Origin: a phage
Sequence record: PZ168832.1
Direction: 5' to 3' (one strand)
DNA: 64,000 nucleotides
Shown: positions 355-48,416 of the stretch, one piece after another
How the letters are laid out: each line of letters opens with the position of its first letter
Position numbering within the stretch: the first letter of the stretch is position 1
Program-made: the position numbers and the translations under genes
Notes under the pieces: generated by a model
Told to the model about the DNA's origin: nothing
The model's input: only the letters and a program-made list of their open reading frames with translations
Databases searched by the model: none

Positions 355-419
355 TTTCGTTTCCTCTATGATTTCTGCTTCAATGATTAAAGTATACGCC
401 CATTGAAGCAGAAAGCAAA

Positions 420-15798: not shown

Positions 15799-16499
15799 AT
15801 ACGTATTTATGACAGTTTAATCCACTAAATAATACGGATAGAACAGTGAGGAAAATACAGCGGTGTATTTTAGTGTAAATATTGAATCAAAAATAAATAA
15901 TTATGGTGCTATTATATACGCAGATTGTTTGTAATTTATAGGATATTTTATCGTGGAGTATTGGCTAACGGTGCGTTAGCCGTGGGTCTTGGTGCTTGTG
16001 GTGTTGATGCTCAGAATTTTAATAATGTTTTAGTTTTAGTAATCGTAGTCAATGATGATACGTATAAGAAAATGAGAGTCACCCCTTCACAGGATATTGT
16101 ACCGTGGCCCTGTGGTGCGCCGCGCCTGGGATTGCTGGTATACACTGGTGCTATTTTGCCGCGAAGGCAGTCATTCATACGTATCATGACGTATCATTGG
16201 GCTATTGATTTATAAGGAAAAATACGCTGATACGGATGATACGGGTGCAAACATAATATATATAGAATTCCAGAAAATTAATTAACTCCATTTTGAATTA
16301 ATTTAAATTAATTTTTTTCTACATCCTCATACTTATACTAAACTTATATTTATACGTATCATCCGTAAGATATAAGTAAAAACAAAGACTTGCGGCAATA
16401 CGGATGATACGTCATGATACGCTTCAACCAGCCATCTGCGGCTAAGTCATTGATTTGCATAACAAGCGGCGAAAGGGATGGATTTCTTTTATACGTATC
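15799..16499. repeat. Iteron cluster A: 9-10-bp CGTATCATC / GATGATACG units in both orientations around an AT-rich core
   Basis: Units at about 16057-16065, 16176-16200, 16229-16245, 16353-16369, 16398-16422, 16491-16499; AT-rich core 16261-16316; 8-bp palindrome GGCTAACG..CGTTAGCC at 15962-15980. Confidence 0.6.
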
Positions 16500-31672: not shown

Positions 31673-31950
31673 CGCGTATAATGACGTATCATCCGTATCA
31701 AGTAAGTAGTTGTTTTCAAAAGAATCTTACGGATGATACGGATGATACGCGTTGCCGCGATACTTTATAGGAATTCAAATAAATTAATTTAAAATTATAT
31801 ATCTAATTTAATTTTATTTTTTTATAAACTCTTATATATGAAAAGTATCCGTATCATCCGTATCATCCGTAGCACACCAGTGATAGCGCGGCTTATACAC
31901 CGATACGGATAAAAATACGCCTCATTTTATCCGTATCATCCGTATCACAC
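31673..31950. repeat. Iteron cluster B: same 9-bp CGTATCATC / GATGATACG units and a homologous AT-rich core
   Basis: Units at 31681-31700, 31727-31750, 31845-31873, 31901-31920, 31925-31950; AT-rich core 31767-31824 shares TATAG(G)AATTC and AATTAATTTAAA with cluster A. Confidence 0.6.
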
Positions 31951-35249: not shown

Positions 35250-35364
35250 TTGCTGTGATTACACAGTAAAACACATGGGGCGTGGTCGAAAGGCTTCGCC
35301 CCATATCAATAGACCTCAAGGGCTGTAGGGGCTTATCTGAGGCTTATATAAATAGGACTACAAA

Positions 35365-39303: not shown

Positions 39304-39309
39304 ATAATT

Positions 39310-39327
39310 GCCGCCGTAACTGGCGGC
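39310..39327 (+). other. Stem-loop between the sheath and tube genes
   Basis: GCCGCC-GTAACT-GGCGGC, no T-tract. Confidence 0.3.
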
Positions 39328-39350
39328 CATCTCTCTGAGAGGAATCTGTA

Positions 39351-41799: not shown

Positions 41800-42359
41800 T
41801 GGACTTCGTTTCGATTCTGCTTTCTGGTCAATCTTTGACCATAACGAATGAGTCAACAGGTCTTCCTGTCTGGACAAGGCTTTCACCTGTTTCTGCAGAA
41901 ATAACATCCCCAGCAGAAACAACTCAATTCCCTCTTGCTGGTACAGCCATGCAGGTTGTCGAAGTATCAAGCACGTCATCAGTAAGCAATTTACAGGCGG
42001 CAAAGGTTGTAATGCCAGCCCATATGGCGTTAAACGTAATTTGCAATGACCAGTCTACAATTGAAAATATCATAAATTCATTTGATGATGACGAAGTCAC
42101 ATTTTCAATAACTTCTCGAAGCATCATTGCCAGTAAAATGTCGATGTCCGACGTTGAAATAACCCAGTCAGAAGAAAACTTGAATGGAGTCTCAATAGTA
42201 ATAACTTTCGAGCAAACGTCATTTAGCATTCAAGGAAGCTTCGACCCTAAACAATCTGCAGACGAATCATCAAATGGTGTTGCTATTAAAGAACCAGTCA
42301 GTTTGACTACAACTGTGAGTTCGTTATATAATAAAATAAAATCAACAGTAGGAATATAA
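41799..42359 (+). CDS. Hypothetical tail protein
   Basis: 186-aa ORF. Confidence 0.5.
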   Translation: MDFVSILLSGQSLTITNESTGLPVWTRLSPVSAEITSPAETTQFPLAGTAMQVVEVSSTSSVSNLQAAKVVMPAHMALNVICNDQSTIENIINSFDDDEVTFSITSRSIIASKMSMSDVEITQSEENLNGVSIVITFEQTSFSIQGSFDPKQSADESSNGVAIKEPVSLTTTVSSLYNKIKSTVGI

Positions 42360-45840: not shown

Positions 45841-46362
45841 ATGAGAAAGAATAAAGTAATTGAGTTGTTTGGAGTTACTTATGAAATACATCAATTCAGC
45901 GCAATAGATGCGTTTGAAATGGTTGATGCGATAAGCATATTAACTCCACTTGAATTATTAAGTGAATGTCATGTTATTAAATATGACGGAACTAAAGTCA
46001 GGTTAAACTCTGAGAAGGCCATAAGTGAAGAAGTGAAAAGTGTGCCAAATCACTTGCCGCCAAACCTTGTATTGAAAGTTCTAATGGAAGCGGTAAAGAA
46101 GCACAATTTTGGATTCCTCAGTGATTGGAAAGGCACTAAGATTCCAAATAGATTCTTGGCTGACGTTCCGACCGTGGAGCCTAATTATCTTGAGCCGATG
46201 GTTGCAAGCCTAATAAACAATGGTCTTGCTTCGTTAAAAGAACTGGAAGAATATTATTCATTGCGTGATGCATTCGCCATGTTTGATGGACTAATAGCAA
46301 AATCACTTAATGAAGCCTACTCAAACGAAGCTGCCATTAAAGAATCAAAGTCAAATCGCTAA
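45841..46362 (+). CDS. Hypothetical baseplate protein
   Basis: 173-aa ORF. Confidence 0.5.
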   Translation: MRKNKVIELFGVTYEIHQFSAIDAFEMVDAISILTPLELLSECHVIKYDGTKVRLNSEKAISEEVKSVPNHLPPNLVLKVLMEAVKKHNFGFLSDWKGTKIPNRFLADVPTVEPNYLEPMVASLINNGLASLKELEEYYSLRDAFAMFDGLIAKSLNEAYSNEAAIKESKSNR

Positions 46363-46373
46363 AATATTGCTTA

Positions 46374-46420
46374 TAGACTCCTTATAGATTATAATTTGTT
46401 GATCAGATATAAGGAGTCTA
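46374..46420 (+). promoter_or_regulatory. 13-bp perfect inverted repeat pairing with the RBS of the next gene
   Basis: TAGACTCCTTATA (46374-46386) and TATAAGGAGTCTA (46408-46420); the second arm contains AAGGAG just before ATG 46420; spacer contains TATAAT. Confidence 0.35.
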
Positions 46421-47148
46421 TGATGGCAGAAAAGTTAACCCAACTTACAAGCCCCAACCAAACTGACAAATCAAGTATGTTTGCCGCGCTGCAGGGAATG
46501 CTGGACCGTGGCAAGTATACCACTGACGGCATGATTCCTGCACAAGTAATATCTTATGACCGCAAACAGAATTTAGCAGTCATAAAGCCTGTTATTCATT
46601 TCGTAAGTCTTGATGATAGACCAGTGGAGCGTCAACCACTGGTGTCAATTCCTGTATTGGCAATCGGCGGCGGCGGCTTCGTAATCAACTTTCCTCTGAA
46701 AGAGGGTGATTTGGGCTGGATATTCGCTGGCGACCGCGAGTTGTCGACATTCCTTGAAGAATTGAAGCCGACCGCGCCTACCAATGGCCGCGCGAAAACT
46801 TTCGCTGATGGACTGTTCATACCGGATGTATTTCGAAAATACACCATAAGCGGAGAGGATGCAGGCTCAATGGTAATCCAGTCACTCAGCGGAGCTGTCC
46901 GCATCGCATTAAGTGATGACTCGATAAACATAACTGCATCGGCTGGAGTAAATGTGAAAACACCAATAACCACTATCGACCAACAATTGATAGTTAATGG
47001 AAAGGCAACGTTCAATGGTGGTATAGAAGGGAAAGAAGGAACGACGGCAACGCTTCCGACTGGCACAACAATCGGCGGCACAAATGTATCCACTCACGGT
47101 CACATAGGTAACGGACCTGGAAACAGAACTGGGGATATGATAGAATGA
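46420..47148 (+). CDS. Baseplate spike / hub protein (gpV-like, tentative)
   Basis: About 240 aa with a Gly-rich beta-type C-terminus, upstream of a gpJ-like gene. Confidence 0.45.
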   Translation: MMAEKLTQLTSPNQTDKSSMFAALQGMLDRGKYTTDGMIPAQVISYDRKQNLAVIKPVIHFVSLDDRPVERQPLVSIPVLAIGGGGFVINFPLKEGDLGWIFAGDRELSTFLEELKPTAPTNGRAKTFADGLFIPDVFRKYTISGEDAGSMVIQSLSGAVRIALSDDSINITASAGVNVKTPITTIDQQLIVNGKATFNGGIEGKEGTTATLPTGTTIGGTNVSTHGHIGNGPGNRTGDMIE

Positions 47149-48416
47149 GTGCACAATATTCTTACATAGTAAGCACTGGTGTAATAACCATCGACACAGC
47201 CGATTTGCTGGCTGACGTTCAAAGTGAATGGATTGAGTCATTAGGGGTCGGGCTTGACGTTGATGCCTCGACACCGCAAGGCACCCTAATCGCGACAGAG
47301 ACTTTGGCAAGAACTTCAGTCATGAAGAATAACGCCGAGCTGGGAAGTCTCATCAACCCTAATTATTCATATGGCGTATACCTTGATGCCATCGCGGCGT
47401 TGCTTGGTATTGAGCGAACGAAAAACATCAGCACGATGTTGAAAGGCATTACCGCAGAAGGAACGCCGCTGTTGGAAATTCCTGCTGGAAGTTTGCTGAC
47501 GGATTCAAATGGCACATACTGGTATGTTTTGGAAGACGTTCAAATCACTTCGACTGGCAAGACAAGCAATATGACTCTTGCATCAAAAGAGTATGGCTCA
47601 TTTACTGTTGCACCTGATGAAGAGTTTACCGTGGTGCAAGGATATGACGTCATCGGATGGTCAAGAACGTATTCAACATCAGCAACGACGACCGTACCAG
47701 GTACGCAATACATGGGCGACGGAGCGTTAAAGGCCGCTCGCGTTAAGCGCCTTTACCAGCAGGGAATTGCATCGCTTGGTGCTATTCGCGCTCGCGCCAT
47801 GTCGGTCGACGGCGTGGAATCGGTGATGGTAGTGGAGAATGACACGGGATTGCCTGGAACGGTGCGCGGCATCACCTTTTCAACGCCTAACGGTGTCTGG
47901 GTGTGCGCAAGCGGAACGTTCGATAAGCAAGTTTTTGCTGAGACTATTTTCAAGGCAAAGATGGGCGGCCAACCGTGGGACTTTGGTGCTACCAACCAGG
48001 GTGATCCAGTCAACTCGCCTGATGGAATAGAAGTTGTCGACGAAGAATCGCAACTGTCTTATTTCGTAAAGTTCAACACTGCTGTCATATATGACTTGTA
48101 TGTCGACATTACTGTTGTAAGAGGCACCGCAACCGCCGATGCCGAATCTATTATTGCCGCTGTGTTGAATTACGGTAATGGAAATTTTAACGGCGAGCAA
48201 GGATATGCAGTGGGTCAATCTCAATCTTCTTTTGAGATTGCTTCATCAGTGTCTTGCGAGTATCCAGGTCTGTACATTAAAGATTGCAAAATTGCAGCAG
48301 TTAAAAGCGGACAGGCAGCGCCAAATTATCCATCCGATTACGGCAGCGAGTGGATTGCCAATCCTTGGGATAAGGCTAATACTATGCGCGGCTTCATCAA
48401 CGTTAAATTTGTGTGA
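47145..48416 (+). CDS. Baseplate wedge protein (gpJ-like, tentative)
   Basis: 423 aa, positioned between the spike and fibre genes. Confidence 0.45.
   Translation: MSAQYSYIVSTGVITIDTADLLADVQSEWIESLGVGLDVDASTPQGTLIATETLARTSVMKNNAELGSLINPNYSYGVYLDAIAALLGIERTKNISTMLKGITAEGTPLLEIPAGSLLTDSNGTYWYVLEDVQITSTGKTSNMTLASKEYGSFTVAPDEEFTVVQGYDVIGWSRTYSTSATTTVPGTQYMGDGALKAARVKRLYQQGIASLGAIRARAMSVDGVESVMVVENDTGLPGTVRGITFSTPNGVWVCASGTFDKQVFAETIFKAKMGGQPWDFGATNQGDPVNSPDGIEVVDEESQLSYFVKFNTAVIYDLYVDITVVRGTATADAESIIAAVLNYGNGNFNGEQGYAVGQSQSSFEIASSVSCEYPGLYIKDCKIAAVKSGQAAPNYPSDYGSEWIANPWDKANTMRGFINVKFV

What the first reader, a model, noticed from the sequence alone, without database searches (positions are those of the whole stretch)
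46374..46420. 13-bp perfect inverted repeat that would sequester the RBS of the baseplate spike gene
TAGACTCCTTATA and TATAAGGAGTCTA can pair, with the second arm containing the AAGGAG Shine-Dalgarno directly before the ATG at 46420. This could throttle translation or act as an operator.
Basis: seen in the sequence. Interest (0 to 1): 0.35.

Follow-up and report, generated by a model that had tools for sequence, protein, structure and literature searches.

The report
Promoter-embedded hairpin masking spike-gene RBS
The inverted repeat is real, but it brackets a host-type promoter, so only long read-through transcripts can fold the hairpin that hides the spike gene's ribosome site; this is a known trick (phage T4 lysozyme, IS10) newly seen across the Wifcevirus/PB1-like phage family.

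Summary
The window is a Wifcevirus E. coli myophage (99.4% identical to Bas99/WFC). The repeat is confirmed and slightly longer than reported: perfect 14-bp arms at 46373-46386 and 46408-46421. About 0.035 such repeats are expected per 64 kb. As RNA it extends to about 24 bp (46368-46428, -26.7 kcal/mol, z about -5.4 to -6). It buries the Shine-Dalgarno AAGGAG and both ATGs.

Arm 1 is the promoter spacer. RNA started here (about 46402) therefore lacks arm 1 and has an open ribosome site (about 5 kcal/mol to open). Read-through RNA has it locked (about 22-23 kcal/mol).

In the related Pseudomonas phage 14-1, published ONT-cappable-seq places a validated sigma70 start site (P018) between the equivalent arms. 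Across 28 related lineages the promoter is conserved. The arms differ in sequence, yet each pairs best with its own partner (-17.7 vs -11.4 kcal/mol, p<=5e-5).

This is the T4 gene e / IS10 fold-back arrangement: a new member of a known kind. Function is inferred, not shown. A second repeat around a -10 box (369-417) does not mask its ribosome site, which is a caveat.

The parts
45841..46362 (+). Upstream gene (173 aa, unknown function). Its stop codon TAA is at 46360-46362. Read-through transcripts enter the element from here.
   Evidence: ORF list; annotated as a hypothetical protein in Bas99 and Mansfield; no Pfam hit.
46367..46372 (+). Candidate -35 hexamer TTGCTT, 17 bp upstream of the -10 box.
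   Evidence: Read from the sequence. It is too weak for the consensus scanner (3 of 6 matches). Relatives carry TTTACT/TTTACC/TTGACG at the same distance.
46373..46386 (+). Arm 1 of the inverted repeat (ATAGACTCCTTATA). It contains the anti-SD CTCCTT and occupies the first 14 nt of the 17-nt promoter spacer, so it lies upstream of the predicted transcription start.
46390..46395 (+). Perfect -10 hexamer TATAAT, inside the hairpin loop.
   Evidence: The orthologous TATACT of phage 14-1 drives the mapped and reporter-validated TSS P018.
46400..46404 (+). Predicted transcription start zone (A46402 is 7 nt after the -10 box), between the two arms.
   Evidence: Inferred from promoter geometry. In 14-1 the experimental TSS lies 8 nt after the -10 box and downstream of arm 1.
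46408..46421 (+). Arm 2 of the inverted repeat (TATAAGGAGTCTAT). It contains the Shine-Dalgarno AAGGAG (46411-46416) and the first two bases of ATG 46420.
46368..46428 (+). Full predicted RNA helix in read-through transcripts. Outer 4 bp: 46368-71 with 46425-28. Core 15 bp: 46372-86 with 46408-22. Inner 5 bp: 46387-91 with 46400-04. A and U of the ATG at 46423 sit in a 2-nt bulge between helices.
   Evidence: -26.7 kcal/mol; z = -5.4 and -6.05.
46423..47148 (+). Baseplate central spike gene (241 aa from ATG 46423). Its stop overlaps the next start (ATGA).
   Evidence: PF18352.
47145..48416 (+). Baseplate wedge (Baseplate_J) gene. It overlaps the spike stop by 4 nt, so it is probably translationally coupled and belongs to the same promoter-defined unit.
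   Evidence: In 14-1, TU018 comprises spike plus wedge.
42303..42332 (+). Upstream sigma70-like promoter (TTGACT-18-TATAAT, 11 of 12 matches) and likely source of read-through transcripts. No terminator-like site lies on the + strand between it and the hairpin.
   Evidence: By position it corresponds to 14-1 P017.

Best explanation
The 60-nt gap before the spike gene holds an internal sigma70-type promoter (TTGCTT, 17 bp, TATAAT) nested inside an RNA hairpin. Arm 1 is the promoter spacer and arm 2 is the ribosome-binding site. Host RNA polymerase starting here (about 46402) makes a short-leader mRNA for the spike and the overlapping wedge gene. That mRNA lacks arm 1 and is freely translated. 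Transcripts arriving from upstream promoters, such as the one at 42.3 kb, contain both arms and fold into a helix of about 24 bp that buries the SD and both AUGs. On those long mRNAs the spike, and the coupled wedge gene, are translationally silent or possibly cleaved. Spike and wedge output is thereby tied to its own promoter and insulated from the upstream tail operon. What is shown: the repeat, its thermodynamics, the promoter consensus, family-wide conservation of the layout, and a mapped TSS between the arms in phage 14-1. What is inferred: promoter activity in this phage, the existence of read-through RNA, the translational effect, and the biological purpose (timing or stoichiometry).
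For: (1) The helix is highly stable and beyond chance. (2) The computed cost to open SD..AUG is 22-23 kcal/mol in read-through RNA and 4.5-5.4 kcal/mol in RNA starting at 46400-46405. (3) A perfect TATAAT lies in the loop, with TTG at -35 and a 17-bp spacer that equals arm 1 plus 3 nt. (4) The orthologous gap of Pbunavirus 14-1 has an ONT-cappable-seq TSS (P018, 28318). It is sigma70-type and active in msfGFP promoter traps in E. coli and P. aeruginosa, and it defines TU018 = spike + wedge. That TSS lies 8 nt after TATACT and downstream of arm 1 (GGGAAGGCU), which pairs with GGCUUUCCC just before the AUG. (5) Among 14 mapped sigma70 TSSs of 14-1 that have a nearby gene start, only P018 shows strong pairing between the untranscribed upstream 31 nt and the 5' UTR: -24.2 kcal/mol against -5.4 to -14.7. 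Among 17 predicted promoter-gene pairs in the window, the spike one is the extreme at -22.2. (6) In 28 lineage representatives the -10 box is conserved but the arms are lineage-specific. Cognate upstream/UTR duplexes average -17.7 kcal/mol against -11.4 for non-cognate pairs (permutation p<=5e-5). The cognate pair ranks first in both its row and its column in 13 of 28. Examples are L024 ACCTCTTACAGT/ACTGTAAGAGGT, L029 CTCTCCCGGTG/CACCGGGAGAG, L038 ACTCCATGAC/GTCATGGAGT, and Hera, where arm 1 is the -10 box itself. (7) The sense RNA is more stable than the antisense in 17 of 20 lineages (p = 0.004), with G.U pairs on the sense strand. (8) The 121-bp region is 98.3-100% identical in all 29 Wifcevirus records, although the surrounding 1.4 kb drops to 90-94% in 18 of them. 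No variable site occurs at 46318-46400 in 11 aligned genomes. (9) The mechanism has precedent: T4 e, soc, 49 and I-TevI (PMC3014915) and IS10 (Davis et al. 1985, cited in PMC13181058).
Against: No transcript or translation data exist for any Wifcevirus. The TSS is predicted, and the -35 matches only 3 of 6 positions. Read-through transcription is inferred only from the absence of a terminator. The hairpin is not universal. The opening-cost difference is at least 5 kcal/mol in only 12 of 28 lineages, and the all-lineage comparison with control promoters is marginal (Mann-Whitney p = 0.053). In some lineages (L043, L042) arm 2 lies upstream of the SD. A second repeat bracketing a -10 box in the same genome (369-417, minus strand) does not mask its ribosome site (2.1 vs 2.3 kcal/mol), so bracketing a promoter may serve another purpose. 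Because the leader is only about 20 nt long, any 3' arm downstream of the TSS almost has to touch the ribosome site. There is no covariation within Wifcevirus, since the arms are invariant. The single arm change (46409 A>C in vB_Eco4M-7) is uncompensated. The biological reason for silencing read-through copies of a structural gene is unknown.
Confidence: 0.6

Rival explanations
1. RNA processing or stability element. The roughly 24-bp interrupted helix in polycistronic RNA is an RNase III (or other nuclease) site, or a 3'-end protective hairpin that stabilises the upstream hub mRNA. Masking of the ribosome site would then be incidental.
For: The helix length in the window (4+15+5 bp) is in the range of E. 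coli RNase III substrates (general knowledge). The second repeat at 369-417 forms a 15-bp hairpin that does not hide its SD, which suggests that hairpin formation itself may matter.
Against: Stems in relatives are often only 8-12 bp (L029, L038, L043, L097), too short for efficient RNase III cleavage. A pure stability hairpin would not need a 13-25-nt loop spanning the -10 box. Cleavage inside arm 2 would also destroy the ribosome site, so this is a variant of the same outcome rather than a true alternative.
Confidence: 0.14
2. General translational throttle. The promoter-like hexamers are not used, every spike mRNA carries both arms, and the hairpin simply keeps spike synthesis low.
For: The -35 is weak and the consensus scanner did not call the site. 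The central spike is a low-copy virion component, a trimer (general knowledge).
Against: The weaker orthologous promoter of 14-1 (TATACT, poor -35) is an experimentally mapped TSS and is active in E. coli. A -10 box at 21-40 nt from the start codon was found in 33 of 37 related loci scanned; in another two the call was wrong or the box lay too close to the start codon to count, and two had none. An opening cost of 22 kcal/mol would give essentially no translation rather than a throttle.
Confidence: 0.1
3. DNA-level element. The inverted repeat is an operator for a dimeric phage or host regulator, or a cruciform that tunes the embedded promoter.
For: Arm 1 lies in the spacer and arm 2 at about +6 to +19, which are positions where repressors act. 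Two promoters in this genome are bracketed by repeats.
Against: The arms of the two sites are unrelated in sequence. Across lineages the arms differ in sequence, length (7-17 bp) and spacing, which would require a new regulator in each lineage. G.U pairs make the sense RNA more stable than the antisense in 17 of 20 lineages, which is not expected for a DNA palindrome. Loops of 13-25 nt disfavour cruciform extrusion (general knowledge).
Confidence: 0.08
4. Transcription terminator, or a promoter-coupled terminator that ends the upstream unit just where the next one starts.
For: Promoter-terminator overlap is reported as common in bacteria (bioRxiv 10.64898/2026.08.19.745784). Burkholderia phage BCSR129 has an extra hairpin over its -35.
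Against: No U-tract follows arm 2 (GUCUAUGAUGGCAG), the stem is AT-rich, and the scanner does not call it. In the described coupled terminators the stem sits at -35, the T-tract lies in the spacer, and the termination site is about 10 bp upstream of the TSS. Here the 3' arm is downstream of the TSS.
Confidence: 0.04
5. No function: a fortuitous repeat preserved by recent common ancestry.
For: Within Wifcevirus there is no covariation, only identity.
Against: The chance expectation is 0.035 per window. It is the least variable 60-nt stretch in the 1.9-kb alignment. Independent complementary arms occupy the same place in many diverged lineages.
Confidence: 0.04

Closest known systems
Phage T4 gene e (lysozyme) leader, and the like cases of soc, 49 and I-TevI (McPheeters et al. 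1986; reviewed in Uzan & Miller 2010, PMC3014915)
   Same: The SD and AUG are sequestered in a helix on long transcripts from upstream promoters. A promoter placed within the region encoding the 5' strand gives transcripts that lack that strand and are well translated. Related phages keep the arrangement with differing sequences.
   Different: The T4 promoters are gp55-dependent late promoters (TATAAATA), and the logic is temporal: early RNA is silent and late RNA is active. Here the promoter is a host sigma70 type, the gene is a baseplate spike inside a structural operon whose upstream promoters are also sigma70-like, and the phage family (Lindbergviridae) is unrelated. Nothing has been tested experimentally.
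IS10/Tn10 (and IS50) protection from external promoters, known as fold-back inhibition (Davis, Simons & Kleckner 1985, cited in PMC13181058)
   Same: Read-through transcripts from outside contain a segment upstream of the element's own TSS that pairs with the ribosome-binding site. Transcripts from the element's own promoter lack that segment. The purpose is insulation rather than timing, which is the reading preferred here.
   Different: That is a transposase gene of a mobile element. Here it is a virion gene inside a co-oriented operon of the same genome. The details of the IS10 structure are recalled from memory and were not re-examined.
Phage 14-1 promoter P018 / transcription unit TU018 (Putzeys et al. 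2024, PMC10914365)
   Same: It is the orthologous position between the 173-aa-type gene and the spike gene. It is a sigma70-type promoter with a leader of about 19 nt, and the unit covers spike plus wedge. Arms flank the -10 box.
   Different: The arm sequences are unrelated (GGGAAGGCU/GGCUUUCCC). The helix is shorter, with two G.U pairs. The effect on ribosome-site opening is smaller: 6.5-8.1 against 18 kcal/mol. In the parts of that paper I read and searched, the hairpin is not mentioned.
Promoter-coupled terminators (Fletcher et al. 2026, bioRxiv 10.64898/2026.08.19.745784)
   Same: A hairpin-encoding repeat overlaps a promoter in a tandem intergenic gap.
   Different: There the stem-loop supplies the -35, a T-tract fills the spacer, and RNA ends about 10 bp before the next TSS. 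Here the -10 box is in the loop, the 3' arm lies downstream of the TSS, and there is no T-tract.

Membership tests
Promoter-embedded ribosome-site-masking hairpin (T4 gene e type / IS10 fold-back inhibition) | The SD and/or start codon are base-paired in a stable helix in the long transcript | tested here: met
   The SD (46411-16) and ATG 46420 lie in the 15-bp core. ATG 46423 lies between helices. The fold is -26.7 kcal/mol with z = -5.4, and the opening cost is 22-23 kcal/mol.
Promoter-embedded ribosome-site-masking hairpin (T4 gene e type / IS10 fold-back inhibition) | A promoter whose start site lies between the two strands of the helix, so its transcripts lack the 5' strand | tested here: inconclusive
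   At the sequence level this is met: TTGCTT-17-TATAAT with arm 1 in the spacer. It is met experimentally in the orthologous site of phage 14-1, where TSS P018 lies downstream of arm 1. No TSS data exist for this phage.
Promoter-embedded ribosome-site-masking hairpin (T4 gene e type / IS10 fold-back inhibition) | The short transcript has an accessible ribosome site | tested here: met
   The opening cost is 4.5-5.4 kcal/mol for RNAs starting at 46400-46405, with an MFE of only about -6 kcal/mol. This is a computation only.
Promoter-embedded ribosome-site-masking hairpin (T4 gene e type / IS10 fold-back inhibition) | Transcripts from upstream promoters actually read through the site | not testable with these tools
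   A sigma70-like promoter lies at 42303-42332, and no terminator-like site lies on the + strand before 46390. The 14-1 long-read units list no + strand terminator in this region, but the reads were too short to prove read-through.
Promoter-embedded ribosome-site-masking hairpin (T4 gene e type / IS10 fold-back inhibition) | Translation differs between long and short RNAs | not testable with these tools
   This needs reporter fusions, toeprinting or ribosome profiling.
Intrinsic (rho-independent) terminator | A G+C-rich stem followed by a U-tract | tested here: not met
   The scanner makes no call at the site. The stem is AT-rich and the 3' flank is GAUGGCAG.
Promoter-coupled terminator (Fletcher et al. 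2026) | Stem-loop at the -35, T-tract in the spacer, RNA 3' end about 10 bp upstream of the TSS | tested here: not met
   The -10 box lies in the loop, the 3' arm lies downstream of the predicted TSS, and there is no T-tract.
Protein operator (palindromic repressor site) | Conserved half-sites recognised by a cognate regulator, with strand-symmetric constraint | tested here: inconclusive
   The arms differ in every lineage and between the two sites in this genome. The sense-strand bias with G.U pairs argues for RNA. Protein binding cannot be excluded by computation.
RNase III processing site | About two turns of double-stranded RNA, cleaved in vivo | tested here: inconclusive
   The window helix of about 24 bp with a bulge is compatible. 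Many relatives have only 8-12 bp. Cleavage is not testable here.
Any curated RNA family (Rfam 15) | A covariance-model match | tested here: not met
   No match with E<=1 in 46000-46800 on either strand.

The most novel reading that the evidence does not exclude
The spike/wedge unit of the whole Lindbergviridae-like group (Wifcevirus, Pbunavirus, Myosmarvirus and many uncultured relatives) is a self-contained expression cassette. A conserved host-type internal promoter sits in a hairpin that is repeatedly re-invented or continually co-evolving, and this hairpin makes upstream read-through RNA untranslatable. Such a family-wide insulator for baseplate stoichiometry or timing inside a structural operon has not been described for these phages. 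A bolder version is that hairpins bracketing a -10 box (two in this genome, one of which does not mask its ribosome site) act during transcription on polymerase or promoter traffic rather than on ribosomes.
Probability: 0.45. Interest if true: 0.5.

Novelty: new member of a known kind. Interest (0 to 1): 0.4.

Why it matters
If correct, the amount or timing of the central spike and wedge proteins in these phages is set by one small promoter rather than by the long tail operon. Several of these phages are used or proposed for therapy and biocontrol, including PB1-like Pseudomonas phages and Wifcevirus E. coli O157 phages. This matters for reading phage transcriptomes, because RNA coverage over the spike gene would overestimate translatable message. 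It matters for engineering, because moving or deleting the 60-nt gap, or inserting payloads upstream, would change baseplate gene expression. It matters for annotation, because the start codon is 46423 and there is an internal promoter. It also extends a classic T4/IS10 regulatory design to a host-sigma70 promoter in an unrelated phage family. The lineage-specific complementary arms provide a natural set of compensatory variants to test.

Tried and rejected
1. Covariation within Wifcevirus. The arms are invariant in 29 records, and the only arm change (46409 A>C in vB_Eco4M-7) is uncompensated, so nothing can be counted.

2. Covariation within Pbunavirus. A loop-anchored pattern scan of IMG/VR returned only 4 contigs, all with identical arms (arms compared).

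3. A single consensus structure across lineages. MAFFT anchors the -10 box and the ATG, but the helices are out of register between lineages. I therefore did not use the count of structure pairs or a covariance model, and used the cognate versus non-cognate duplex test instead.

4. Rfam: no match.

5. Other copies of the arm in the window: none beyond chance.

6. Terminator reading: rejected (and the sequence).

7. Promoter-coupled terminator: the geometry does not fit.

8. Translational coupling by a ribosome terminating at 46360-62. The stop codon lies 11 nt before arm 1 and would reach only the outer 4 bp. The distance varies in relatives, so this was not pursued.

9. The leader motif ATCGAAACG shared by early promoters of 14-1: not enriched in the window (2 found against 0.9 expected).

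10. The all-lineage test of ribosome-site opening cost against control promoters is only marginal (p = 0.053), because roughly half of the lineages lack a masking hairpin.

Full report
IDENTITY OF THE WINDOW. The 1.4 kb around the finding is 99.4% identical to Escherichia phages ManiWeber_Bas99 and vB_EcoM_WFC. It matches 29 records, all of them Wifcevirus or close relatives; one record places the genus in Lindbergviridae. The local gene order is lytic tail/tape-measure protein, baseplate hub (Pfam PF22759, E217_GP41), a 173-aa protein of unknown function, then a 60-nt gap. After the gap come the central spike (PF18352), the Baseplate_J wedge protein and a 912-aa protein. This sits inside a co-oriented structural module of about 28 kb that has very few intergenic gaps.

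THE OBSERVATION. The repeat is real and one base longer than reported. Arm 1 is ATAGACTCCTTATA (46373-46386) and arm 2 is TATAAGGAGTCTAT (46408-46421), with a 21-nt loop. Markov surrogates of the window give 0.035 perfect 14-mer inverted repeats within 80 nt. The arm has no other copy in the window with fewer than 2 mismatches.

As RNA the helix extends to about 24 bp over 46368-46428. It consists of an outer 4 bp, a core of 15 bp that includes one U.G pair, and an inner 5 bp. The energy is -26.7 kcal/mol with z = -5.4 to -6.05, and none of 200 shuffles folds as well.

Arm 2 holds the SD AAGGAG (46411-46416) and the ATG at 46420. The next in-frame ATG (46423) is the better start. It has 6-nt spacing from the SD, it gives the conserved N-terminus MA..., and most records annotate it. 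Its A and U lie in a 2-nt bulge between two helices.

The loop contains a perfect -10 hexamer, TATAAT (46390-46395). TTGCTT (46367-46372) lies exactly 17 bp upstream, and arm 1 fills the first 14 nt of that spacer. The consensus scanner skipped the site only because the -35 matches 3 of 6 positions.

A transcript started about 7 nt after the -10 box (A46402) contains arm 2 but not arm 1. The computed cost of opening 46411-46425 is 22-23 kcal/mol in RNAs that begin at 46250-46340. It is 4.5-5.4 kcal/mol in RNAs that begin at 46400-46405.

EXPERIMENTAL SUPPORT FROM A RELATIVE. The gene order hub, 173-aa-type gene, gap, spike is kept in four of the five relatives examined: Serratia phage Hera, Pseudomonas phage E217, Burkholderia phage Karil-Mokiny-1 and Xanthomonas phage Carpasina. 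BCSR129 keeps the gap before the spike, but its neighbouring genes are annotated only as hypothetical proteins. Each has a gap of 35-84 nt containing a -10-like box. Phage 14-1 has the same layout.

For Pbunavirus 14-1, the supplementary tables of Putzeys et al. 2024 list TSS P018 at 28318 (+). These tables belong to PMC10914365 and its preprint 10.1101/2023.10.13.562163. [quoted passage not shown] It defines TU018 = gp42 (spike) + gp43 (wedge).

In the 14-1 sequence this TSS lies 8 nt after TATACT and 19 nt before the ATG. It is downstream of GGGAAGGCU, which pairs with GGCUUUCCC immediately before the ATG. The opening cost there is 11.9 kcal/mol for read-through RNA and 3.8 kcal/mol for P018 RNA.

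The pairing is specific to this promoter. Fourteen mapped sigma70 TSSs of 14-1 have a nearby gene start. Only P018 shows strong pairing between the untranscribed 31 nt upstream and the 5' UTR: -24.2 kcal/mol against -5.4 to -14.7.

FAMILY-WIDE PATTERN. A profile search of IMG/VR returned 80 loci. About 37 of them have the gap layout. The rest are P2/Mu-like, with no gap and no promoter, and serve as an outgroup.

In the gap-bearing loci a -10 box of at least 5 of 6 matches usually lies 21-40 nt before the start codon. It is often preceded by TTTACT/TTTACC at 16-18 bp. The flanking sequences differ from lineage to lineage yet are complementary:
- L024: ACCTCTTACAGT / ACTGTAAGAGGT.
- L029: CTCTCCCGGTG / CACCGGGAGAG.
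- L038: ACTCCATGAC / GTCATGGAGT.
- L043: CACCCGCT / AGCGGGTG.
- L097: TTGGCGC / GCGCCAA.
- L052 and Hera: arm 1 is the -10 box itself, and arm 2 runs into the start codon.

For 28 lineage representatives I defined A as the 31 nt upstream of the predicted TSS and B as the TSS through start+9. Cognate duplexes average -17.7 kcal/mol and non-cognate duplexes -11.4 (permutation p<=5e-5). The cognate pair ranks first in both its row and its column in 13 of 28. In 12 of 28 it beats at least 99.5% of same-locus 31-nt windows.

The sense RNA is more stable than the antisense in 17 of 20 lineages (Wilcoxon p = 0.004). This reflects G.U pairs on the sense strand and points to RNA rather than DNA. Hera and L025 differ in the arms by changes that keep pairing through G.U or G-C.

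The trait is not universal. The opening-cost difference is at least 5 kcal/mol in 12 of 28 lineages and at least 8 kcal/mol in 9 of 28. For 15 control promoter-gene pairs in the window the median is 2.9 and the maximum 7.5. The all-lineage comparison is only marginal, with p = 0.053.

CONSERVATION WITHIN THE GENUS. The 121-bp region is 100% identical in 23 of 29 records and at least 98.3% in all. The surrounding 1.4 kb is only 90-94% identical in 18 records. In an 11-genome alignment no site varies between 46318 and 46400, which is the lowest count in 1.9 kb. The few changes are two loop positions and one uncompensated arm position, 46409 A>C in vB_Eco4M-7.

MECHANISM. The arrangement matches the classic design described for T4 genes e, soc, 49 and I-TevI. 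There, long transcripts fold an inhibitory structure over the ribosome site, and a promoter inside the region encoding the 5' strand yields translatable RNA (Uzan & Miller 2010, PMC3014915). It also matches IS10's protection from external promoters (Davis et al. 1985, cited in PMC13181058; the details are from memory).

The promoter here is a host sigma70 type, and the upstream promoters are of the same type: 42303-42332 in the window, and P013-P017 in 14-1. I therefore favour insulation or stoichiometric control over a simple early/late switch, but this is inference. The wedge gene overlaps the spike stop (ATGA), so it would share the control.

RIVALS.
- An intrinsic or promoter-coupled terminator does not fit. 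There is no U-tract, and the 3' arm lies downstream of the TSS.
- A protein operator or cruciform is disfavoured by the lineage-specific arms and the sense-strand bias.
- RNase III processing is compatible with the 24-bp helix in the window but not with the 8-12-bp stems of many relatives. Cleavage would in any case also inactivate the ribosome site.
- A general throttle is unlikely given the mapped orthologous TSS.

CAVEAT. A second perfect 14-bp repeat lies at 372-385/401-414 on the minus strand, extending to 369-417. It brackets the TATACT of a TTGCTT/TTTGCT-type promoter in a 65-nt gap, and it is 96-99% conserved in all 29 records. Its arm 2 spans about +1 to +15 of the predicted RNA and ends 4 nt before the SD. 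The computed accessibility of that ribosome site is unchanged, at 2.1 against 2.3 kcal/mol. It might act through loss of an upstream ribosome standby site, or repeats bracketing a -10 box might have a role that does not involve the ribosome. This keeps my confidence at about 0.6.

VERDICT. It is incomplete, because masking applies only to read-through RNA: the hairpin encloses a promoter. I classify this as a new member of a known regulatory kind. The layout recurs in about half of the lineages examined across a phage family, and it has direct TSS evidence in one relative. In the literature I searched and read I found no description of this hairpin.

Noticed in passing
window 369-417 (minus strand); gene start at 354 (-): A second repeat that brackets a -10 box. 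Its arms TTTCTGCTTCAATG / CATTGAAGCAGAAA (perfect 14 bp, extending to 15-17 bp) surround the TATACT of a TTGCTT/TTTGCT-type promoter in a 65-nt gap. The hairpin ends 4 nt before the SD and does not change the computed accessibility of the ribosome site. It is 96-99% conserved in all 29 Wifcevirus records.
   Followed up: partly
window 16231-16414 and 31682-31944: Nine copies (at most 3 mismatches to the 16-mer) of an ATCCGTATCATCCGTA / CGTATCATCCGTA motif, in direct and inverted orientation, against 0.29 expected. They form two clusters. One lies in a convergent gap. The other lies in the 416-bp non-coding region upstream of the head maturation protease gene, next to TATAAT boxes at 31677 and 32028. 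They look like binding sites for a DNA-binding protein (regulator, origin or packaging).
   Followed up: partly
window 35250-35364 and 39304-39350: G+C-rich hairpins immediately after the major head gene (GGGGCG..CGCCCC) and after the tail sheath gene (GCCGCC..GGCGGC). They are likely terminators or attenuators that partition the late module. The first is followed by a TATAAATA-like sequence before the next gene.
   Followed up: no
window 42303-42332: A near-consensus sigma70 promoter (TTGACT-18-TATAAT) inside the 3' end of a tail gene, 29 nt before the gene preceding the tape-measure gene. By position it is equivalent to the mapped TSS P017 of phage 14-1. It has no fold-back hairpin (-6.0 kcal/mol).
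   Followed up: partly
L018 (Burkholderia phage BCSR129) 1435-1470: Besides the hairpin that masks the SD, a separate 14-bp G+C-rich hairpin encloses the -35 (TTGACG) and ends at the -10 box. It resembles the recently described promoter-coupled terminators.
   Followed up: no
L061 (IMG/VR contig 3300048898_000066) about 2365-2395: The spike homologue has TATAAT only 8 nt before its ATG, with CCGT..TCGA / TCGA.CGG arms around it. This suggests a leaderless mRNA variant of the same module.
   Followed up: no
L104 (phage 14-1) TSSs P001 (707), P006 (4479), P028 (49234): Three mapped early sigma70 promoters share an almost identical 5' UTR (ATYGAAACGCGAAACCCTTCA.ACAAAAGG), and P009 has a related one. 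This is a conserved leader of unknown role. The 9-mer ATCGAAACG is not enriched in the window (2 found against 0.9 expected).
   Followed up: partly
window 46409 (vB_Eco4M-7 and 4M-7n): The only substitution in an arm among the aligned Wifcevirus genomes is A>C. It breaks the second pair from the loop-proximal end of the 15-bp core helix and is not compensated.
   Followed up: yes
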